Assembly (NCBI GenBank): GCA_904381285.1
Contig: CAJFII010000003.1
Span: 78,292 to 142,291, forward strand
DNA: 64,000 bases
Origin: an uncultured Clostridia bacterium
Lineage (GTDB): Bacteria > Bacillota > Clostridia > TANB77 > CAG-508
Reading direction: 5' to 3'
Made by a program: the position numbers and the translations under genes. Shown here piece by piece: positions 1,259-42,481 of the stretch (the first letter of the stretch is position 1; every line of letters begins with the position of its first letter). The notes below the pieces were generated by a model. It had not been told where the DNA came from and searched no databases. It saw only the letters and a list, made by a program, of their open reading frames with translations.

Positions 1259-4102
1259 ATGCAAGAAGAAAAAGTAGAAGTAAAAAATAATGTACCAGAA
1301 AAAAAAGCAAAAAAAATAAGAACAAGAGTAATACTTGTTTTGGTGTTTATTATTTTAATAGCTATATTTGCATATATTTCATATAGAGGTACTTATTTAG
1401 AAACAATTGAAATTGGAGAAAACTTTAAACAAGTATTTACTACAAATTTAAAATATCAATATATAACAATAGGAGTAAATTTTATACTACTATTTATAGT
1501 ATTTTCGCTTGCTAACAGAAGTATAAAAAAAGGATTAAAAGCTTTTTTTGATGAAGAAAAGAAAGACATGCCTAAGTTACCAAGTAAATCAATTGCATTT
1601 ATATTATCTGTGATTGTAAGTATTATTGTTTCTTATGTGTTTTCAGAACAAATAGCTTTATTTATTAATAAAGCATGGTTTGGAATTAATGACCCGGTGT
1701 TCGGAGCTGACATAGGATTTTACATTTTTGAACAACCATTTTATGAGAATTTAATTTTATATTTTATGGCAATTATTGTTGGAATAATGATATATGAAAC
1801 TATCTATTATATTATAATTTTCAATATATATTTTGATGGAATTAATGTTCAAACACTTAAAAAGAGCAAATTTTTAAAACAAATTATGAATAATATTATA
1901 ATTTTATCTTTTGGAATAGCTGCATACATTTTAGTATCTACACAAGGAATGGTTAATGATAAATTTTTAATTTTAAATGATGATAACTCTACTGGAATTT
2001 ATGGAGCTGGAATTACTGATGTTACAATTAAATTATGGGGATATAGGATTTTTGCAATAGTAATAATAGCTTGTGTTTATAGAGCAATTAAAGCATTTAA
2101 AGAAAAGAAAAATAAAAAAGTTATTACATCTATTTTAATAGTGCCTGGGTATTTAGTAATACTTTTTGCGGTAATGGTAGGCTTTAAGTTAATTTACATT
2201 AATACAAATGAATTAGATAAGGAAAAACAATATTTAGCATACAATATTGAAAATACAAAATCTGCATATGGAATAAAAATAGATGAAATAGATATAAACA
2301 ATACTGAGGATACATCTAACTTAGATGAAATTGAATCAAACATGGAGCTTATAAAAAATGTTGCAATGGTAAGCCCAGATGTTACTTTAAAAACTATTGG
2401 TGTAACTCAAACAAGTACAGGATACTACACATATAGAAATTCTAATATTGCAAAATATAATATTGCAGGAAAAGAAGAATTAGTATATATTTCTCCAAGA
2501 GAAATTCTAAGTAGTGGAGATAGAACTTATAACAATAAAACATATGAATATACACATGGTTTTGGAGCAATTATAACAAGTGCTAGCTCTACAGATGAAT
2601 CAGGTAATATTAAATATCTTCAAAAAGATTTTGTAAGCGATAATCAGGCAGTAGAAATATCACAACCAAGAATTTATTTTGGATTAGAAACTAATAATAC
2701 AATTGTTACTAATACAGAAAACAAATCAGAATTTGATTATCCAACTACAACTTCACAAAATGCAGAATATACATATGATGGTCAAGCAGGACTTAAATTA
2801 AATTTTCTTGATAGAATAATATTAGCTATAAAAGAAAAAGATATTAATTTGGCTTTCTCAAGTAATATGACAGACAATAGTAAAATATTAATAAATAGAA
2901 ATATTATTGAAAGAGCTAAAACAATAATGCCATATTTAATATATGATGAAGAACCATATTTAGTAATAAGTGATGAAGGAAGATTAGTATGGGTATTAGA
3001 TGCATATACTGTAACAGATAAATATCCATATTCACAGTATACAACAATTCAACATGATGGTATAAAAGAACAAATAAATTATATTAGAAACTCAGTAAAA
3101 GTATTAATAGATGCATATGATGGAACAATGAGTTTCTATATAACTGATAAATCAGATCCAATTGTAATGGCATATAGAAATATTTATCCTGATTTATTTA
3201 TGGATTTAGATGCTACAATACCAGAAGATATTGCAAGTCATTTTATATACCCAGAATTTTTATATAATATACAAGCCTCAATATTACAAAGATATCATAA
3301 TGTTAGTACAGATGTTTTGTATAGAAGCGATGATGTCTGGGAAATTGCAAAAACTTCACAAGGAACAACAAATTCTACTTCATCAAAAGGAGTTGCACAA
3401 GAACCATATTATACAATGTTAAAAACAATTGATTCAGATGATTATGAACTAGGACTTGTATTACAATATACACAACTTGATAAGCAAAATTTGCGAGCAT
3501 ACTTAGTAGGAAGTTATGATGAAAATGGTAATGCAAAATTAAAACTATATAAATTTTCACAAGATAGTAATATACTAGGACCAATGCAATTAGATACTCT
3601 ATTAAATCAAGATGAGACAATTTCGCAAGAATTAGAAACATTGAATGTTACTGGAACAAGAACTATAAAGAATATGATTGCAGTTCCAATAAATAACACT
3701 ATTCTTTATGTGGAATCTATCTATCAAATATCTTTAAATGAAGCAAAAAGTACGCCAGTACTGAAAAAGGTTGTAGTAGCAGCTGGTAATAAATTAGCAA
3801 TAGATGATACTTTAGAAGGGGCAGTTAAAAATTTACTTTCTCAATCAGCGGTTAATATTGAAGTTGAAAATACAGACACAATAGAAGATTTAGTAGATGC
3901 AATAATAAAGGCAAATACAAATTTAACTACTTCTTCTAACAATAATGATTGGGAAATGATAGGAAAAGATTTGAAAAAATTGCAAGAATTGATTAACAAA
4001 TTGGAAATACTACAAGAAGAAAAGAAAGAGGAAGAAGAAGAGAATATACTAAATACAGAAACTAATATAATAAATTTAAATAATCAAAACATAATACAAT
4101 AA
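1259..4102 (+). CDS. UPF0182 family membrane protein
   Basis: 947 aa; N-terminal TM helices, DPVFGxDIGFY, YTHGFG, PRIYFG, NYIRNSVKVxIDAYDG. Confidence 0.85.
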   Translation: MQEEKVEVKNNVPEKKAKKIRTRVILVLVFIILIAIFAYISYRGTYLETIEIGENFKQVFTTNLKYQYITIGVNFILLFIVFSLANRSIKKGLKAFFDEEKKDMPKLPSKSIAFILSVIVSIIVSYVFSEQIALFINKAWFGINDPVFGADIGFYIFEQPFYENLILYFMAIIVGIMIYETIYYIIIFNIYFDGINVQTLKKSKFLKQIMNNIIILSFGIAAYILVSTQGMVNDKFLILNDDNSTGIYGAGITDVTIKLWGYRIFAIVIIACVYRAIKAFKEKKNKKVITSILIVPGYLVILFAVMVGFKLIYINTNELDKEKQYLAYNIENTKSAYGIKIDEIDINNTEDTSNLDEIESNMELIKNVAMVSPDVTLKTIGVTQTSTGYYTYRNSNIAKYNIAGKEELVYISPREILSSGDRTYNNKTYEYTHGFGAIITSASSTDESGNIKYLQKDFVSDNQAVEISQPRIYFGLETNNTIVTNTENKSEFDYPTTTSQNAEYTYDGQAGLKLNFLDRIILAIKEKDINLAFSSNMTDNSKILINRNIIERAKTIMPYLIYDEEPYLVISDEGRLVWVLDAYTVTDKYPYSQYTTIQHDGIKEQINYIRNSVKVLIDAYDGTMSFYITDKSDPIVMAYRNIYPDLFMDLDATIPEDIASHFIYPEFLYNIQASILQRYHNVSTDVLYRSDDVWEIAKTSQGTTNSTSSKGVAQEPYYTMLKTIDSDDYELGLVLQYTQLDKQNLRAYLVGSYDENGNAKLKLYKFSQDSNILGPMQLDTLLNQDETISQELETLNVTGTRTIKNMIAVPINNTILYVESIYQISLNEAKSTPVLKKVVVAAGNKLAIDDTLEGAVKNLLSQSAVNIEVENTDTIEDLVDAIIKANTNLTTSSNNNDWEMIGKDLKKLQELINKLEILQEEKKEEEEENILNTETNIINLNNQNIIQ

Positions 4103-4151
4103 TGTATAGAATTCATAAAAAAAACCACCCTATATAATATAAGGTGGTTTT

Positions 4152-4445
4152 ATGTTTATAAAAAAATCAAAATTAGAGAAATTAATGAAAAATATAGATA
4201 AATTAAATTTTACTTTAACTAAAAATAATTTAATAGATTTAGCAGAAATTCTAGGAAATAGGAAGGAATTACTAATTAGAAACTTAATTGCAGGAATGGC
4301 AAAGGGGATAGGAATTGGTATAGGATTTTCTCTTCTTACAGCAGTATTAATTATTATATTACAAAAAATAGTAACCTTAAATATACCGGTTATAGGGGAT
4401 TATATAACTGATATAGTAGAAATAGTAGATAGAAATAGAAGATGA
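4152..4445 (+). CDS. Small membrane protein (DUF5665-like)
   Basis: NLIAGMAKGIGIGIGF segment and IPVIGDYI tail. Confidence 0.65.
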   Translation: MFIKKSKLEKLMKNIDKLNFTLTKNNLIDLAEILGNRKELLIRNLIAGMAKGIGIGIGFSLLTAVLIIILQKIVTLNIPVIGDYITDIVEIVDRNRR

Positions 4446-4554
4446 TATTATTATTAAAAAAGAAAATATAAAATTATTCTATTTAGTATTTTCTTTTTTA
4501 GTTATTTTGTATATAATAGGAGAAGTTATAATAGATATATAATAGGAGGAAAAA

Positions 4555-7163
<2,609 letters not shown>

Positions 7164-35608: not shown

Positions 35609-36637
35609 TTATACTACTTCCCTACATTCAAATGGATTAAAATCAATTATATTACTTTCTAAATTCAATTTAAATCTTTGGCTTAAATCTATATTTACAG
35701 ATTTCAAATCTTTAATATTTTTATAAAATACGGTCTTTGAAGTTCTATTTTTTACATTTGTGACGCCATCAAGCATAATGCTACAATAAAAGTTATATAA
35801 ATTTCTTGCCCTTGTAGAAGAAAAACAAGTATTCAAACGTCTTTCAATATCATCTTTATTTCTAACTATAGTTAAATCGCTTTCAAACATCTTTAATAAT
35901 TTCATAAATTCATCACTCCAAACTTTTTTTAAATCTTCATATATTACATTTTTTACTCTAATATATTTTTTATTATAAATATCTTCTAATTTCTTTTTCT
36001 TTATTTCACATTCAAAACGTATAAAACCTTTAATTTCTTCTAAATAGCTATCTATATTAAAATTAGAATTAAATAATTTTTTAATATCATGTTTTCTAAA
36101 TTCTAACATTTTATTATATATTTTTAATGTTGTAGTTGTTCCAGAAGTATAAATACTCTCATCTTGATAATGTTTTATATTTCTTCTAGGATAATTACAA
36201 AAACTTAAATTATTAATATATTTTCTAACTTTATCATTAGAACCTAAATCAAATACAATAGCAATATCAATTCGCTGCAAAAACCAATGATTTAAATTAG
36301 GTAAATTAATATTATAAGAATATTCTACAGCACCAATAAGCCATTTCACAATTTTTGTTAAATTATAAAAGCCATTGTGAGAATTATACCCACGAATTAT
36401 TTTATGATAAGAACCTTCAATTTCTAAATAATACATATCAACAAACTTATATTTACTACCACAACCAACACGAACTGACAATGAAGAGCTATAAGACCCC
36501 TCTAATTTATCATTAACAATTTCATAATAGATTTCGCCGTCTTTTTGATTATAGCTTGTTTTTAATATAGAATTATGGTATATTTTGTCATATGTATTTT
36601 TATTTATCATAGTATATATTTTTATTGTATCTATCAT
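35609..36637 (-). CDS. Phage/plasmid rolling-circle replication initiator (gene II/X-like)
   Basis: MIDT start, EGSYHK...GYN, RIDIA, LKIYNK, IRFECE. Confidence 0.8.
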   Translation of the reverse strand: MIDTIKIYTMINKNTYDKIYHNSILKTSYNQKDGEIYYEIVNDKLEGSYSSSLSVRVGCGSKYKFVDMYYLEIEGSYHKIIRGYNSHNGFYNLTKIVKWLIGAVEYSYNINLPNLNHWFLQRIDIAIVFDLGSNDKVRKYINNLSFCNYPRRNIKHYQDESIYTSGTTTTLKIYNKMLEFRKHDIKKLFNSNFNIDSYLEEIKGFIRFECEIKKKKLEDIYNKKYIRVKNVIYEDLKKVWSDEFMKLLKMFESDLTIVRNKDDIERRLNTCFSSTRARNLYNFYCSIMLDGVTNVKNRTSKTVFYKNIKDLKSVNIDLSQRFKLNLESNIIDFNPFECREVV

Positions 36638-37520: not shown

Positions 37521-38399
37521 TTAAATACCACCTTTATATTTTGATATTAGATCAGATAATTTTTGTGTATCTGATTTTGAGACACTTAAGTCTTTCATAA
37601 TTTCCTCAGTATTATATTGCTTTCGTATATAATCATAAGCAATAAATACATCACGCTTTACAGTTCTTCTTTTGCGACTTCCTTTATCAAATTTTTCATC
37701 ATTTGCAATATATTCAGCTGTATTATAATATTTATTAACTACTAAACGTCCCATTAAAAAGCTTTTACATTCAATAACAAAATTAGTTTGTTCACGTAAT
37801 TTTTTATTAATACGTGTAAAAACTTGAGAACTTGAAACAATTTGCTTATGTAGTTTTCTTTGCTGTGAAATATAATCAAGTAAATTGTCTGGAGCATCTT
37901 CCCACTTTGTACTTTCAAATGTAAGATGTATCTCATCAAAGCCATAAATTACGCCATTATTTTTCTCATAAAAGAAAAATAATTCACTATCAATAACCTC
38001 AATCCAGACTTTACGATACCATTTTTTATACTTATAATATTCTTTTTCAGTAATCTCAACAATTTCTATATTATTAGTCTCTATTAAATCTCGCCAAGAA
38101 TTTATATGAGCATCTGCAACAGAACATTCAAAATTAGTTAATATTTTAACTTTAGGATACTTTTCACGCATTTTAATAAGATAATTTACAATAGATATAG
38201 TCTTACCACTACCACCTAAACCACAAAAAGCCCAGAAACCATAGCCACGAAAAACAGTTTTGTCCATGCGATAAATATCTCTAATAAATAAAGGAATAGC
38301 TTTAAAAAATTTAATTAAAAAATTGCTTAAATAAAAACCAGTTAATAAATTAACAATATTAAAAATCATAAATATAGCAAAAAAAATCCAAAAATACAT
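37521..38399 (-). CDS. Inovirus pI/Zot-like assembly ATPase
   Basis: N-terminal TM, Walker A GLGGSGKT, Walker B FDEIH, SQQRK, SSQ. Confidence 0.88.
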   Translation of the reverse strand: MYFWIFFAIFMIFNIVNLLTGFYLSNFLIKFFKAIPLFIRDIYRMDKTVFRGYGFWAFCGLGGSGKTISIVNYLIKMREKYPKVKILTNFECSVADAHINSWRDLIETNNIEIVEITEKEYYKYKKWYRKVWIEVIDSELFFFYEKNNGVIYGFDEIHLTFESTKWEDAPDNLLDYISQQRKLHKQIVSSSQVFTRINKKLREQTNFVIECKSFLMGRLVVNKYYNTAEYIANDEKFDKGSRKRRTVKRDVFIAYDYIRKQYNTEEIMKDLSVSKSDTQKLSDLISKYKGGI

Positions 38400-38455: not shown

Positions 38456-38701
38456 CTATACATTAAGATGAACAGCACTAGCAACAATACTGAATAATCT
38501 AAATAATAAAGTAAATCCTATACACATAAAAATAGAGATAAATGCCTCACTAATTGGTAAATATATATTAAAGCCAAAAATAACCCTTAAAATCTGAGGC
38601 AAAGTAGTTATAAGCCATGCTGGAGTTTCTAAAACAGGTAACATAGAAACAATAAAAAAAAGTAAAGTATCAAAAACTTGCAGTAATAAATAAACTATCA
38701 T
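38456..38701 (-). CDS. pVI-like minor coat protein
   Basis: 81-aa hydrophobic ORF between the pIII-like and pI genes. Confidence 0.65.
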   Translation of the reverse strand: MIVYLLLQVFDTLLFFIVSMLPVLETPAWLITTLPQILRVIFGFNIYLPISEAFISIFMCIGFTLLFRLFSIVASAVHLNV

Positions 38702-40034
38702 TTATCAGTCCCCCCTTTAGAATTAATAGAACTATCAACAGAATTCATACCTTGTGTAGAACCATATTTAAGAACATATTTGACAATATAAACTAAAGCC
38801 ATAGCATAAACAACAAGCATTAATAAAGTACGTACACTCATTCTGTAAGGCTCATAAGCATTTAATACGTTAGTAAATTCATAATCATTTGTTTTAAAAT
38901 GTATAGACCCTAAATTAAACTCCCAACCAGAAATCTTAATATCAAGAAAATCCTCGTTAAATACTTCTTGCTTAACTTTTTCTACTTCATCAGAGAAAAA
39001 AGTTACAAAAGGTATATGATTTTTAAAAGTATTTCCTAAGTCTGTATAATCTTGTTTTATAGCTTCCCATTGCTCATCAGTTGGTACAACAATATGTATT
39101 AAAAAATCAAGGAAAGCATCAAAAAAATTAGTAAACCAATTCCAAATATAACCTATATTTTCAACCATGCCAGAAAAGAAATCACTAATATTAGTCCATA
39201 AATTACTAAAGAAATTTCCTATAGAACTTCCTAAATCAGAAAACCAATCACCAATATTAGAAAACCAATTAGATAAATTTGTACCTAAATTACTAAAAAA
39301 TTCACCTATAGAATTTACCAAATTAGAAAAACCCTCAGTAAGATTATTCCAAAAGCCATTAAAGAAATTACCTATAGATGTAGCCATTTCTTGGAGCTTA
39401 GTAGGTATACTAGACAAAGCGTTCCAAATATTATCAAACCAACTGGAATCAGGATGATAAGTATCTTCGTTATCACCGACGGTATTTCCTCCACCTGGGT
39501 TGGTCTCATCAGAGTCACCTGTGGAGGTCGAGGAAAAAAAAGAGTACCATCAGAATTATAAATTTCACCAGAAAAAACGGAATAGTGACGAGTTTCAAAA
39601 TCTTTATATATTCTAAACGAATCACTAGTAAGTTCATTTTGATAACATGTAGATATTCCATCTTGATTTCCATCACGTCCGCCCCAGATATAATGTTGAA
39701 CTGGATTATCTAGTAAATCAAAAAAGTTAACTTCATAATACGTATCGGTTTCATTCACAATAGTAAGTCTAGCACTATCTGAAGATGTATAATGTAAAAC
39801 TGTCCAATCAATCCAGTTATTAAGAGTATCAGTATAATAAGTTTTAGGGCTTTTACCTTCTTCTATTCCTAAAAGATTTCCAAAATTATAAGTCATTGGG
39901 AGCCAAGATTGAGTAGAATTATTATAATAATCTGATGTTATACTAAAAGCACTAACACAAGAGCTAAAAAGACAGATACTTACAAAAGCAAAAATACAAA
40001 TAAATAACTTACTTTTAGAAAAAATTTTAAACAT
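38698..40034 (-). CDS. pIII-like adsorption protein, 445 aa via a -1 shift at the T8 run (39534-39541)
   Basis: Signal peptide; -1 frame open from the slippery run through an S/G/D linker into W/F amphipathic repeats and a C-terminal TM. Confidence 0.7.
39372..40034 (-). CDS. Unshifted 220-aa product ending in a major-coat-like tail
   Basis: C-terminus VEEIPSVITKILIILIPVGLIIFGTLCLVYLL aligns without gaps to the 53-aa coat protein. Confidence 0.7.
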   Translation of the reverse strand: MFKIFSKSKLFICIFAFVSICLFSSCVSAFSITSDYYNNSTQSWLPMTYNFGNLLGIEEGKSPKTYYTDTLNNWIDWTVLHYTSSDSARLTIVNETDTYYEVNFFDLLDNPVQHYIWGGRDGNQDGISTCYQNELTSDSFRIYKDFETRHYSVFSGEIYNSDGTLFFPRPPQVTLMRPTQVEEIPSVITKILIILIPVGLIIFGTLCLVYLLSSKKWLHL

Positions 40035-40115
40035 ATAATTCTCCTTTCTTAAAAAAATAAAAGACCAGGGACTACGAAAAAATCCCTAGCCCGAAAATTG
40101 GACTATACCTCTTAA

Positions 40116-40277
40116 TTATAAGAATGTATATATAACTCTCTTTATTAAGCTAATACCAATAAAAGTAGCCATAATTCCTATACCTATAGGAATAAGAACA
40201 TTTAAGCCACTGTTAATAGCATTTGTTACAGGGGAAACAGTATTAGCAGTAATTTCAAAAGCACCTACAGTATTCAT
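40116..40277 (-). CDS. Major coat protein (pVIII-like), 53 aa, absent from the ORF track
   Basis: AAAGGAG RBS; MNTVGAFEITANTVSPVTNAINSGLNVLIPIGIGIMATFIGISLIKRVIYTFL (amphipathic, TM, basic tail). Confidence 0.8.
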   Translation of the reverse strand: MNTVGAFEITANTVSPVTNAINSGLNVLIPIGIGIMATFIGISLIKRVIYTFL

Positions 40278-40894: not shown

Positions 40895-40996
40895 CTTTCC
40901 TTTTGCGCAATGTTATATTTTTATTTTTTAGGGATTTATTTTCCCCTATCGATTTACTTGACTTATTATAAACATATAAATTTTTAAATGTCAATA
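40895..40996. repeat. Right 102-bp direct repeat (attR side)
   Basis: Begins CTTTCC-TTTTGCGCAAT; preceding arm is degenerate (GAACAAAATAT). Confidence 0.9.
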
Positions 40997-41047
40997 ACAA
41001 AAAAGACGTAGATCATTTTACCTACATCTTATATATTTTCAAATTTA

Positions 41048-42370
41048 CTATTTATATTGTTTTAAAAAGATTTCCATTTTTTCTAAAAATTCTTTATTTG
41101 TTTTTGTTGCAACTAATTGATTTAGTAATTGTTCTGTAACTTCAGCTACTGACATATTTGACATCGCTTTTCTTAATGCAAATACAGTTTCTAATTCCTT
41201 TTCATCTAGAAGTAAATCCTCTCTTCTTGTTCCAGATTTATTAATATCTATTGCTGGGAAAATACGTTTTTCAGATAATTTTCTATCTAAATGAACTTCC
41301 ATATTACCCGTTCCTTTGAATTCTTCGAAAATCACTTCATCCATTCTACTTCCTGTTTCAACTAAAGCTGATGCAAGTATAGTTAAACTTCCTCCATCCT
41401 CTATATTTCTTGCTGCACCAAAAAACTTTTTAGGTTTATGTAAAGCACTTGGATCAAAACCTCCAGATAAAGTTTTTCCAGATGAAGGAATTACTAAATT
41501 ATATGCTCTTGCTAATCTTGTAATACTATCTAATAAGATAACAACATCTTTTTTTTGTTCTGTAAGCCTTTTTGCTCTTTCTAACACCATTTCAGCTACT
41601 TTTACATGGTGTTCTGGTAATTCATCAAATGTTGAATATATTACTTCACCTTTTATAGAACGTTTCATGTCTGTAACTTCTTCTGGCCTTTCATCAATTA
41701 ATAGTACAATTAGTTCAACTTCTGGATTATTTGTACTTATACTATTTGCAATTTTCTTTAAAAGAGTAGTTTTTCCAACTTTTGGAGGAGCAACAATCAT
41801 ACCTCTTTGCCCTTTTCCAATAGGTGAAATTAAATCTATTAATCTCATTGCATATTCATTAGGTGTAGTTTCTAATCTTAATCTTTCTTGTGGATAAATT
41901 GGTGTTAAATCATCAAAGTTTTTTCTTTTATATGCTTTTTCTGGTGCTTCACCATTTACTTCTCCAACAAATATTAAAGCAGGAAATTTTTCTCCTTCTT
42001 TTGGTTGTCTAGATATACCTTTTATTTTGTCACCTGTATCTAATTTAAATCTCCTTATTTGGACTGGTGAGATATAGATGTCATTTGGTGTAGATAAATA
42101 ATTCTCTCCTCTTAAAAAACCATAACCATCTGGTAAAACTTCTAATATTCCTTCTACTATTTGATCATCTTCATTAGTAACTTTATAAGTATCGTTTAAA
42201 TGATTTGATTCTTTTTCAGAAGTGTTTTCATCTTTATCTTTATTTAAATTTTCATCTAAATTTTGTAATGCTATAATTAATTCATCTTTTTTTAATTTAG
42301 AAACATTTTTAATTTCTTTTTCTTTTGCTAACTGCCTTAATTCTGCTAAAGATTTTTCTTCGTACCCCAT
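41048..42370 (-). CDS. rho: Transcription termination factor Rho
   Basis: [36 protein letters not shown]. Confidence 0.97.
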
Positions 42371-42481
42371 ATGTACCTCCATACTATTAAAACTTTCCCT
42401 TATGTATAATATTGTATCATATAAATCTCTTAAACTCTAGTGCTTAAATGAAAATAATCTATAAAACATAAGTTCTACAGA

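What the first reader, a model, noticed from the sequence alone, without database searches (positions are those of the whole stretch)
39372..39541. Possible natural phage display: a -1 frameshift switches the adsorption domain between a pIII C-terminus and a coat-like anchor
Seen (minus strand): CTT TTT TTT (U8), a 6-nt spacer, then a stem-loop CCTCCAC...GTGGAGG with an inner GGT..CTC/GAG.ACC helix (39488-39527). The next ~54 codons make sense in two frames. The -1 frame reads SSTSTGDSDETNPGGGNTVGDNED...WFDNIWNAL into the 38698 ORF (445-aa pIII-like protein). The 0 frame reads QVEEIPSVITKILIILIPVGLIIFGTLCLVYLL, which aligns without gaps to the 53-aa coat protein (TVSPVTNAINSGLNVLIPIGIGIMATFIGISLI; shared V, I, L, LIPxG, I, T, L). 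Established: slippery heptamer, short spacer and hairpin is the standard -1 PRF layout. Inference: the same N-domain is displayed both at the tip and along the filament at a fixed ratio. Poly-T phase variation or transcriptional slippage could give the same two products.
Basis: partly seen in the sequence, partly recalled or inferred. Interest (0 to 1): 0.82.

Follow-up and report, generated by a model that had tools for sequence, protein, structure and literature searches.

The report
Frameshift gives phage adsorption protein two tails
A filamentous prophage of a chicken-gut Clostridia bacterium appears to make two versions of its host-binding protein from one gene by a conserved ribosomal slip, one ending in a copy-like version of the phage's own coat protein and one in a long tip-protein domain.

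Summary
On the minus strand a T8 run (39541-39534) lies in the phase CT[T TTT TTT]. A 6-nt spacer and a stem-loop (39527-39488) follow it, and about 54 codons are open in two frames. It is not an assembly error: three independent DNA assemblies and one RNA-library contig carry T8 with no indel.

The layout is a family trait. All 28 resolved loci have a T5-T9 run in the same codon phase, with the -1 frame opening 0-44 nt before it. 15 of 28 have no start codon in the overlap. One further locus has A AAA AAA plus a strong hairpin at that place. No fused copy was found, but distant relatives encode both halves in one ORF.

The 0-frame tail is carried at the C-terminus by 302 protein clusters with otherwise unrelated N-domains. 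It resembles the phage's own major coat protein specifically: hhalign 89.5% against 0.3-5.3% for three control membrane helices, and it changes with the coat type across subfamilies.

Best reading: a programmed -1 frameshift makes a coat-anchored short form and a pIII-like long form. Display on the virion and the ratio are untested.

The parts
39372..40034 (-). N-ORF, the 0-frame 'short form' (220 aa, P0001). It has a signal-peptide-like N-terminus, a variable N-domain and a conserved C-terminal tail, and stops at TAG 39374-39372.
   Evidence: The tail family is found at the C-terminus of 302 cluster representatives.
39534..39541 (-). T8 run. The heptamer T TTT TTT (39540-39534) in the 0-frame phase CT[T TTT TTT] CCT is the proposed -1 slip site (Phe166-Phe167).
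   Evidence: T8 with no indel in 3 DNA assemblies and 1 RNA-library contig. A run of T5-T9 in the same phase in 28 of 28 loci. Replaced by A AAA AAA in L048.
39488..39527 (-). Stem-loop 6 nt after the run (CCTCCAC/GTGGAGG with an inner helix); a possible stimulator of the slip.
   Evidence: z -3.0 with the run, -0.79 without. Stems at +4 to +7 with different sequences in relatives.
38698..39534 (-). -1-frame segment (P0002, 278 aa plus stop). It has a Gly/Ser/Thr/Asn/Asp-rich linker, a helical repeat region like tape-measure repeats, a beta-hairpin and a C-terminal membrane helix. It forms the C-terminal part of the 445-aa 'long form'.
   Evidence: No conserved start codon.
39372..39541 (-). 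Dual-coding overlap (170 nt). Both frames are conserved and the GC content is raised.
   Evidence: Third-position identity 0.77 against 0.51. GC 0.44 against 0.29. 2 of the 37 substitutions of a variant contig fall here.
39375..39497 (-). Coat-like module of the short form (residues about 180-220): an amphipathic stretch, a membrane helix with Pro+23 to the C-terminus, and a basic end.
   Evidence: hhalign 89.5%, P 2e-6, 40 gapless columns; controls 0.3-5.3%. Pro+23 in 139 of 150 tails. Co-variation with coat type.
40116..40277 (-). Major coat protein gene (53 aa), the model for the tail.
40062..40092 (-). Terminator-like hairpin (12 pairs plus a T tail) between the coat gene and the N-ORF.
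   Evidence: Similar hairpins in L040, L042 and L043.
38456..38701 (-). 81-aa membrane protein in the position of g6 (context).
   Evidence: Conserved in L005 and L006.
37521..38399 (-). Zot-like / pI-type assembly ATPase (context).
   Evidence: phrog_197, E 1.8e-8.
35609..36637 (-). Inovirus G2P-type replication initiator (context).
   Evidence: PF05144, E 3.4e-14; phrog_702, E 3.8e-31.

Best explanation
The gene in the g3 position of this inovirus prophage is decoded in two ways.

1. Most ribosomes read straight through the T8 run. They make a 220-aa type-I membrane protein: signal peptide, a variable (presumably receptor-binding) N-domain, and a C-terminal module that copies the membrane and DNA-proximal part of the phage's own major coat protein.
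2. A fraction of ribosomes slip back one base on the U run. tRNA-Phe can re-pair on U UUU, and in the window both tRNAs can re-pair on U UUU UUU. The slip is probably helped by a stem-loop 6 nt downstream. These ribosomes continue in the -1 frame through a Gly/Ser-rich linker into a 240-aa helical C-domain with its own membrane anchor. The result is a 445-aa protein with the architecture of a filamentous-phage tip adsorption protein.

Shown here: the conserved dual-coding layout, the slippery run at the frame junction, the lack of an independent start, and the specific and co-varying likeness of the tail to the coat.

Inferred: that the slip is ribosomal, its efficiency, the role of the hairpin, and that the coat-like module takes the short form into the virion lattice.
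For: 1. The run is real. Three DNA contigs from three studies span 38698-40034 with 3-4 substitutions and 0 indels. An RNA-library contig spans the run with 0 gaps.

2. The layout is conserved. In 28 of 28 resolved loci (window included) there is a T5-T9 run in one codon phase. The -1 frame opens 0-44 nt before the run and the overlap is 150-200 nt. L048 has A AAA AAA at the same place, followed by a hairpin of -21.9 kcal/mol, z -3.8.

3. There is no independent start. 15 of 28 loci have no ATG/GTG/TTG in the -1 frame of the overlap. The other loci have them at different places and without a usable Shine-Dalgarno sequence.

4. No fused copy was found in this family. The 36 strong homologues of the C-part (of 41 hits) are 156-290 aa. 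The genomic open frames of the C-part are 230-305 aa.

5. Outgroups carry both halves in one ORF with one signal peptide: bajarodino virus 43 at 380 aa; P0039 at 371 aa and P0040 at 413 aa; L058, L059, L064 and L069 at 468-608 aa.

6. Both frames are coding. Third-codon-position identity in the C frame is 0.77 in the 3' overlap and 0.51 downstream (Mann-Whitney p 3e-8). Identical-codon use is 0.82 against 0.61.

7. The tail family is large. 302 representatives of 50%-identity clusters match at E<=1e-3 and 90 at E<=1e-10. All 150 listed carry the tail at the C-terminal end and are 60-358 aa long. N-domains are alike in 0.9% of pairs and tails in 97.1%.

8. The tail is coat-like. hhalign gives 89.5%, P 2e-6, over 40 gapless columns. 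Controls give 0.9%, 0.3% and 5.3%. With the tail HMM, the coat ranks 3rd of 16,027 scored six-frame ORFs of the genome. The distance from the conserved Pro to the C-terminus is 23 residues in 139 of 150 tails, as in the coats. Tail classes 1/2 match coat classes 1/2 (0.18-0.27 identity) and not 3/4 (0.07-0.10); classes 3/4 match 3/4 (0.26-0.40) and not 1/2 (0.02-0.12).
Against: - No protein or read-level evidence of the slip exists. All runs are held as contigs, which cannot show minority T9 transcripts.
- 11 of 28 loci have only [GC]TT TTT, where the P-site tRNA cannot re-pair canonically.
- The downstream structure is weak in the window when the run is excluded (z -0.79). It is absent by z-score in L029 (+0.27) and L030 (-0.17). 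Only 15 of 28 loci reach z <= -2 with mononucleotide shuffles.
- The stems overlap conserved codons (Ala-Pro ... Val-Glu), so coding constraint could mimic structure.
- Openness of the -1 frame in the overlap is not rare once the codon content is given: 8-62% of codon shuffles keep it open.
- The linker half of the overlap shows no codon periodicity in either frame.
- The coat-tail likeness concerns short membrane helices, and subclasses 1 and 2 are not told apart.
- The loci are related to one another, so the counts overstate independence.
Confidence: 0.78

Rival explanations
1. Two separate genes. The N-ORF is the complete adsorption protein, and the downstream ORF is translated on its own from an internal or non-canonical start or by re-initiation.
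For: Gene callers annotate it so: 36 strong homologues are called as separate proteins of 156-290 aa. In the window an ATG lies 12 nt before the N-ORF stop, and a TTG overlaps the stop in L005.
Against: The candidate starts are not conserved. 15 of 28 loci have none in the overlap, and L025, L027 and L028 have none up to 75 nt beyond it. No Shine-Dalgarno sequence lies at a proper distance. The -1 frame stays open and Gly/Ser-rich from the run onward. The C-part has no signal peptide of its own, yet its outgroup homologues are exported as one chain with the N-domain.
Confidence: 0.08
2. The two products arise at the nucleic-acid level. Either RNA polymerase slips on the T8 run and adds a U to some transcripts, or the DNA run varies in length between cells (phase variation).
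For: T8, T9 and A7 runs occur in 16 of 28 loci and in L048. By recall, runs of that length are known to let polymerases slip. The contigs laid cannot show minority variants.
Against: 11 of 28 loci have only T5, which by recall is too short for efficient polymerase slippage. Run lengths of 5-9 all keep the same frame relation, and none of the 28 loci is in the fused state. Four independent contigs of the window's phage all read T8.
Confidence: 0.08
3. The split is an assembly error or a decaying gene (pseudogene).
For: Homopolymers are error-prone. Some relatives do look degraded: in L022 the N-ORF and pI are broken.
Against: T8 appears in 3 independent DNA assemblies. The split is conserved in 28 of 28 loci, with both frames under constraint. 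The tail is conserved in 302 clusters.
Confidence: 0.01
4. Same frameshift, different role for the short form. It stays in the cell membrane as a decoy that occupies the phage's own receptor or entry machinery (superinfection exclusion), and is not built into virions.
For: The short form carries exactly the N-domain of the phage's adsorption protein, so its specificity would always match. In L037, L038, L041 and L048 the N-ORF is intact while the long form needs a further frame change. By recall, producing pIII N-domains makes Ff hosts resistant to infection.
Against: A plain anchor would not need to copy the cognate coat protein in length, charge and sequence class.
Confidence: 0.3

Closest known systems
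Gene III protein (pIII/g3p) of Ff phages M13, fd and f1 (recalled)
   Same: The gene lies between the major coat gene and the g6/g1-type genes. The long form has a signal peptide, an N-terminal binding domain, a Gly/Ser-rich linker and a C-terminal domain ending in a membrane anchor.
   Different: There is no sequence or profile similarity (Pfam gives 0 families for the N-part, and the PDB search returns only tape-measure-like hits for the C-part). Ff pIII is one ORF. Here the two halves lie in different frames, and a second product with a coat-like end is made.
Programmed -1 frameshifts that give two proteins with one N-terminus: tail chaperones gpG/gpGT of tailed phages, dnaX tau/gamma, and T7 capsid 10A/10B (recalled)
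   Same: A homopolymer-type slippery heptamer, a short spacer and a downstream stem-loop. The two products share an N-terminal part, and their ratio would be set by slip efficiency.
   Different: The gene class is new (the adsorption gene of a filamentous phage). 11 of 28 loci lack a canonical heptamer. The 0-frame ending is a mimic of another virion protein rather than a short extension or truncation.
Engineered pVIII display (hybrid 'type 88' phage display; recalled)
   Same: A foreign domain with a signal peptide is fused to the N-terminus of a coat-protein-like helix and made alongside an excess of wild-type coat protein.
   Different: This one is natural and conserved in 302 clusters. The module is a diverged paralogue-like copy (20-40% identity), not the coat itself. 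Incorporation into virions is not shown.
Single-ORF relatives: bajarodino virus 43 (PQ006155.1, CDS 4206-5348), proteins P0039 and P0040, and loci L058, L059, L064 and L069
   Same: A signal peptide, a variable N-domain, the same kind of helical repeat or LNPFSENF-type C-domain, and a C-terminal membrane helix.
   Different: They have one reading frame, no overlapping tail ORF and no slippery-run junction.

Membership tests
Programmed -1 ribosomal frameshift site | Slippery heptamer X XXY YYZ in the 0 frame | tested here: met
   Window: T TTT TTT at 39540-39534. The heptamer is present in 17 of 28 loci, and L048 has A AAA AAA. The other 11 of 28 have only [GC]TT TTT.
Programmed -1 ribosomal frameshift site | Stimulatory RNA structure about 5-9 nt downstream | tested here: inconclusive
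   Window: 6-nt spacer plus stem-loop, z -3.0 with the run and -0.79 without it. Across 28 loci the mean z is -1.83, with 15 at z <= -2 and 25 below 0. L029 and L030 show none. The stems overlap conserved codons.
Programmed -1 ribosomal frameshift site | The -1 frame is closed upstream, opens at the site, and encodes a conserved protein with no start of its own | tested here: met
   The frame opens 0-44 nt before the run in 28 of 28 loci. 15 of 28 have no start codon in the overlap. The C-domain is conserved. Dual-coding signature.
Programmed -1 ribosomal frameshift site | A trans-frame protein is made at a measurable rate | not testable with these tools
   Only contigs of public runs were available. 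There are no proteomic data.
Inovirus pIII/g3p-type adsorption protein | Gene order and domain architecture (signal peptide, N-domain, Gly-rich linker, C-domain with membrane anchor) | tested here: met
   Gene order: coat, N-ORF/C-ORF, 81-aa protein, Zot-like ATPase. The architecture is complete only in the frameshifted product. The signal peptide was judged by eye.
Inovirus pIII/g3p-type adsorption protein | Sequence or profile similarity to described pIII families or solved pIII structures | tested here: not met
   Pfam: 0 families for P0001 and only sub-threshold hits for P0002. PHROGs and PDB return tape-measure proteins only. The AlphaFold model was too poor for a fold search (pLDDT 45).
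Inovirus major coat protein (for the 0-frame tail) | Specific similarity to the cognate coat protein | tested here: met
   hhalign 89.5%, P 2e-6, 40 gapless columns. Three other membrane helices of the same phages give 0.3-5.3%. The coat ranks 3rd of 16,027 scored ORFs. The coat HMM scores >=8 bits on 26 of 145 N-ORFs and on 0 of 132 reversed ones.
Inovirus major coat protein (for the 0-frame tail) | Same geometry: length from the conserved Pro to the C-terminus, and a basic end | tested here: met
   Pro+23 in 139 of 150 tails, and in the coats by my own count of the coat sequences (the script measured tails only). Net charge of the last 10 residues is +2 in 121 of 150 tails.
Inovirus major coat protein (for the 0-frame tail) | Co-variation with the coat across phage lineages | tested here: met
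   Across 26 loci in 4 coat classes, tails match their own super-class (0.18-0.40) and not the other (0.02-0.12). Classes 1 and 2 are not resolved.
Inovirus major coat protein (for the 0-frame tail) | Incorporation into the virion lattice | not testable with these tools
   It needs virion proteomics or imaging.

The most novel reading that the evidence does not exclude
These Clostridia inoviruses practise natural polyvalent display. The frameshift sets a fixed ratio between a tip-anchored long form and a short form that co-polymerises with the major coat through its coat-mimicking helix, so the same exchangeable receptor-binding domain decorates both the tip and the shaft (or a ring next to the tip). 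A sub-clade (L037, L038, L041) may need a second recoding event, a +1 shift at a CGG codon for which the host seems to lack a tRNA, in order to complete the long form.
Probability: 0.3. Interest if true: 0.92.

Novelty: new variant of a known kind. Interest (0 to 1): 0.82.

Why it matters
Programmed frameshifting is well known. I found no report of it in any filamentous phage in seven full-text searches, and two key inovirus papers do not mention it.

If the reading is true, it matters in five ways:
- It explains why the adsorption gene of a large group of gut Clostridia inoviruses is annotated as two 'hypothetical' genes.
- It gives gene callers a rule for finding the real 445-aa product.
- It shows a natural counterpart of coat-protein phage display.
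- It offers a compact recoding cassette with natural variants (U5 to U9, A7, and different hairpins) for studying what makes a site slippery in low-GC Firmicutes.
- The hypervariable N-domains on a constant cassette mark the host-range module of these little-known phages.

Tried and rejected
- Close relatives in IMG/VR: none with either half as query. With alignment A1 the scan returned only an unrelated tape-measure-like locus, L019.
- Word-based search with the window's own tail: it found only itself, so I used a profile search instead.
- First tail-coat tests with few sequences were weak: rank 12 of 17,964 six-frame ORFs given to the search (14,337 listed) at E 4; rank 32 of 14,096 and hhalign 15.9%. 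They became clear only with 147 tails and 12 coats.
- Complex prediction (4 coat copies plus the tail) gave no verdict: score 0.00, controls not run. This is no evidence either way.
- The AlphaFold2 model of the C-part had mean pLDDT 45.3. I made no fold search because matches would be meaningless.
- Rfam returned only a chance sub-threshold snoRNA hit in the region.
- A test of -1 frame openness by codon shuffling was not decisive: 8-62% of shuffles stay open.
- My regex-based site finder picked the wrong Phe codons or the coat gene in several loci. I replaced it with the tail-anchored procedure.
- Loci not used in the 28-locus table:
  - L022: degraded.
  - L028: a fragment nearly identical to L025.
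  - L020, L021, L032-L035, L044 and L046: duplicates of loci already used.
  - L047, L055, L060, L061, L063, L065-L071 and L007-L019: partial or tape-measure-type matches, not analysed.
  - L058, L059, L064 and L069: unsplit outgroups.
  - L048: the A-run locus, treated separately.
- Supplementary files of papers were not consulted. The supplementary tables of PMC6813254 may list gene families that bear on novelty.
Full report
CONTEXT

The window's minus strand between about 35.6 and 40.8 kb carries a small filamentous-phage (inovirus) prophage. Its genes are:
- a G2P-type replication initiator (35609-36637; PF05144 E 3.4e-14, phrog_702 E 3.8e-31);
- a Zot-like pI-type ATPase (37521-38399; phrog_197 E 1.8e-8);
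- an 81-aa membrane protein (38456-38701);
- the two ORFs of the finding;
- a 53-aa coat protein (40116-40277);
- two small upstream ORFs.

The host genome is 1.47 Mb in 19 contigs and holds the element once. Public runs holding the stretch are mostly labelled chicken gut metagenomes, from 11 studies.

THE OBSERVATION

- T8 lies at 39541-39534 in the phase ACT CTT TTT TTT CCT.
- The spacer is CCTCGA.
- The arms CCTCCAC and GTGGAGG lie at 39527-39521 and 39494-39488.
- The 0 frame ends in a hydrophobic tail (P0001, 220 aa).
- The -1 frame is closed by TGA five codons before the end of the run. It then runs open for 278 codons through a Gly/Ser-rich linker into a conserved domain (P0002).

A slip on the run would give 167 + 278 = 445 aa. 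The fold of 66 nt including the run is -21.3 kcal/mol with z -3.0. The 60 nt after the run alone give z -0.79. The hairpin in this one sequence is therefore not convincing by itself.

NOT AN ERROR

Contigs from three DNA runs of three studies cover 38698-40034 with 3-4 substitutions and no indel. An 812-nt contig from an RNA library, a 95%-identical variant, covers 38863-39668 with 37 substitutions and no gap.

Only 2 of those 37 substitutions fall in the 170-nt overlap, and both are in the loop of the stem-loop. Because these are contigs, they say nothing about minority transcripts.

THE SPLIT IS THE RULE IN A LARGE FAMILY

The 36 strong homologues of the C-part (E <= 2.4e-23, of 41 hits) are all 156-290 aa. 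Gene callers start them at different residues.

I collected DNA loci from related genomes, public MAGs and metagenomes. In 28 of 28 loci where the junction could be resolved (the window included; several are close kin), the following hold:
- The N-ORF ends in a conserved tail.
- A run of T5 (11 loci), T6 (1) or T7-T9 (16) sits in one and the same codon phase.
- The -1 frame opens 0-44 nt before the run.
- The overlap is 150-200 nt.

A canonical X XXY YYZ heptamer is present in 17 of 28 loci. The other 11 read G GTT TTT C or A CTT TTT C.

In a further locus, L048, the U run is replaced by A AAA AAA at the same place. It is followed 6 nt later by a hairpin of -21.9 kcal/mol, z -3.8. A change of the encoded residues (Phe-Phe to Lys-Lys) that keeps slipperiness is what a recoding site predicts.

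Run lengths from 5 to 9 all keep the same frame relation, and no locus is in the fused state. This argues against phase variation.

NO START OF ITS OWN

In the -1 frame, 15 of 28 loci have no ATG, GTG or TTG anywhere in the overlap. L025, L027 and L028 have none up to 75 nt beyond the N-ORF stop. Where candidates exist they lie at different positions and lack a Shine-Dalgarno sequence at a useful distance.

The C-part has no signal peptide, yet it ends in a membrane helix. Its more distant homologues are single ORFs with one signal peptide, an N-domain and the same kind of C-domain. These are bajarodino virus 43 (380 aa), P0039 and P0040 (371 and 413 aa), and L058, L059, L064 and L069 (468-608 aa). 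Fusion of the two halves is thus the ancestral or alternative state, and only a frameshift restores it here.

BOTH FRAMES ARE CODING

- In the 3' half of the overlap, third-codon positions of the C frame are 0.77 identical across nine loci, against 0.51 downstream (Mann-Whitney p 3e-8). Identical residues use identical codons in 0.82 of pairs against 0.61.
- GC content rises from 0.23-0.30 upstream to 0.40-0.46 in the overlap.
- The linker half shows no periodicity in either frame.
- Given the codon content, an open -1 frame is not rare: 8-62% of shuffles keep it open. That test adds little.

DOWNSTREAM STRUCTURE

Stems start 4-7 nt after the run in most loci and differ in sequence between subfamilies:
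- CCUCCAC/GUGGAGG
- GCUCCAC/GUGGAGC
- GAGCUCCUC/GAGGAGCUC
- GCCCCUGUC/GGCGGGGGC
- CCCCUACUAC/GUGGUAGUGGGG

With dinucleotide shuffles, z ranges from -2.9 to +0.27 in ten loci. With mononucleotide shuffles the mean is -1.83, with 15 of 28 loci at z <= -2. Two loci show nothing. The arms coincide with conserved Ala-Pro and Val-Glu codons of the 0 frame. I therefore regard the structure as likely but not proven.

THE 0-FRAME TAIL

A profile of ten tails finds 302 representatives of 50%-identity clusters (90 at E <= 1e-10). All 150 listed are 60-358 aa and carry the match at the C-terminal end. By eye, nearly all full-length ones begin with a signal peptide.

Among 144 of them, N-domains are alike in 91 of 10,296 pairs (0.9%) and fall into 69 groups. 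Tails are alike in 97.1% of pairs. This is the pattern of an exchangeable host-range domain on a constant cassette.

THE TAIL COPIES THE COAT PROTEIN

With few sequences the likeness was not significant. With 147 tails and 12 coats the picture is clear:
- hhalign gives 89.5% probability, P 2e-6, over 40 gapless columns that cover nearly the whole mature coat.
- The same tails score 0.9% against the 55-aa membrane protein, 0.3% against the 81-aa protein, and 5.3% against the long form's own C-terminal helix.
- The tail HMM ranks the coat 3rd of 16,027 scored six-frame ORFs of the genome.
- The coat HMM scores >= 8 bits on 26 of 145 N-ORFs and on none of 132 reversed ones.
- The conserved proline is followed by exactly 23 residues in 139 of 150 tails, as in the coats by my count of the sequences. 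The last ten residues carry a net charge of +2 in 121 of 150.

Most telling, the tail changes with the coat. Phages whose coat ends ...RKGIAFVQxxLHxA or ...FRKGWSFLKGEIRKA have tails ending ...LRKALKTLxNFLHKA or ...LRKGWTFLKKALKKA.

In a C-terminally anchored gapless comparison of 26 loci, tails match coats of their own super-class at 0.18-0.40 identity and the other super-class at 0.02-0.12. Classes 1 and 2 are not told apart, and L052 mixes types.

MECHANISM, AS FAR AS IT CAN BE REASONED

The invariant core is UU UUU with UUU as a 0-frame Phe codon, so tRNA-Phe can always re-pair one base back. In 17 loci the neighbouring tRNA can re-pair too.

The host has one tRNA-Phe(GAA), one tRNA-Val(UAC) and one tRNA-Leu(UAG). 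The codon after the run is often the rare CAG (2.29 per 1000, against 27.09 for CAA). This could favour a pause with tRNA-Phe in the P site, but that is inference.

Polymerase slippage may add to the effect in the T8, T9 and A7 loci, but it cannot be the common mechanism with T5.

WHAT THE PRODUCTS DO

The long form has the architecture, though not the sequence, of a tip adsorption protein. Its C-part matches only tape-measure-type helical repeats, and the model was of low confidence.

The short form places the same N-domain on a coat-like helix. Co-assembly with the coat lattice is the simplest reason for such mimicry. A membrane-bound decoy for superinfection exclusion is a live rival. Neither could be tested here, and the complex prediction gave no verdict.

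KNOWN OR NEW

Seven full-text searches found no report of frameshifting in an inovirus gene. For these I saw the search listings only. Term searches inside PMC10061712 (gut Enterocloster inoviruses) and PMC6813254 (cryptic inoviruses) found no mention of frameshift or pIII. Supplements were closed.

Comparisons with Ff pIII, gpG/gpGT, dnaX, T7 10A/10B and type-88 display rest on my recall.

VERDICT

The frameshift and the coat-like tail are well supported by comparative evidence. Display on the virion, the product ratio and the role of the hairpin remain open.

Noticed in passing
L037 (reverse strand, about 1660-1690), L038 (reverse strand, about 1740-1760), L041 about 750-775, L048 about 1095-1110: In four relatives the C-domain leaves the -1 frame again shortly after the N-ORF stop. 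An extra C (in L048, two bases) precedes a Gly codon, so the incoming frame reads the rare codon CGG and soon hits a stop. The rest of the C-domain stays open for 180-202 aa in another frame. This could be a second recoding site (+1 at a hungry codon) or recurrent damage.
   Followed up: partly
Whole genome G000: aragorn finds 34 tRNAs and no tRNA-Arg(CCG). CGG is used 28 times in long ORFs (0.11 per 1000 codons), which makes it the rarest Arg codon.
   Followed up: partly
window 40062-40092 (-): A terminator-like hairpin (12 pairs plus a T tail) lies between the coat gene and the N-ORF. Strong hairpins sit at the same place in L040, L042 and L043. By recall, Ff phages have a terminator after gene VIII.
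   Followed up: partly
L022 about 3936-4833; L041 about 1596-2226; L043 about 2478-3147: The Zot-like pI gene is split into two frames just before its Walker A motif in three relatives, while it is intact in the window and most other loci.
   Followed up: no
L040 647-1006; L042 497-937; L043 580-952; L052 433-821: Two tandem copies of the major coat gene lie upstream of the N-ORF.
   Followed up: no
L058, L059, L064, L069: Prophages in the same host family have an unsplit 468-608-aa homologue (signal peptide, N-domain and LNPFSENF-type C-domain) and a different coat type.
   Followed up: partly
window 38698-39417 (-); P0002 residues about 31-190: The C-part matches tape-measure protein families of tailed phages (phrog_58 E 1.9e-14; PDB tape-measure chain 9d93 E 1.2e-6) through GxFFxNLWxN-type helical repeats.
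   Followed up: partly
window 40965-40994 (-) and 41003-41030 (-): A perfect TTGACA-18-TATAAT promoter-like site lies just downstream of a terminator-like hairpin that follows the host rho gene (41048-42382), at the upstream edge of the prophage.
   Followed up: no
window 38863-39668: A contig from a chicken-gut metatranscriptome library (X19) covers the junction region of a 95%-identical variant. This is compatible with transcription, but DNA carry-over cannot be excluded.
   Followed up: no
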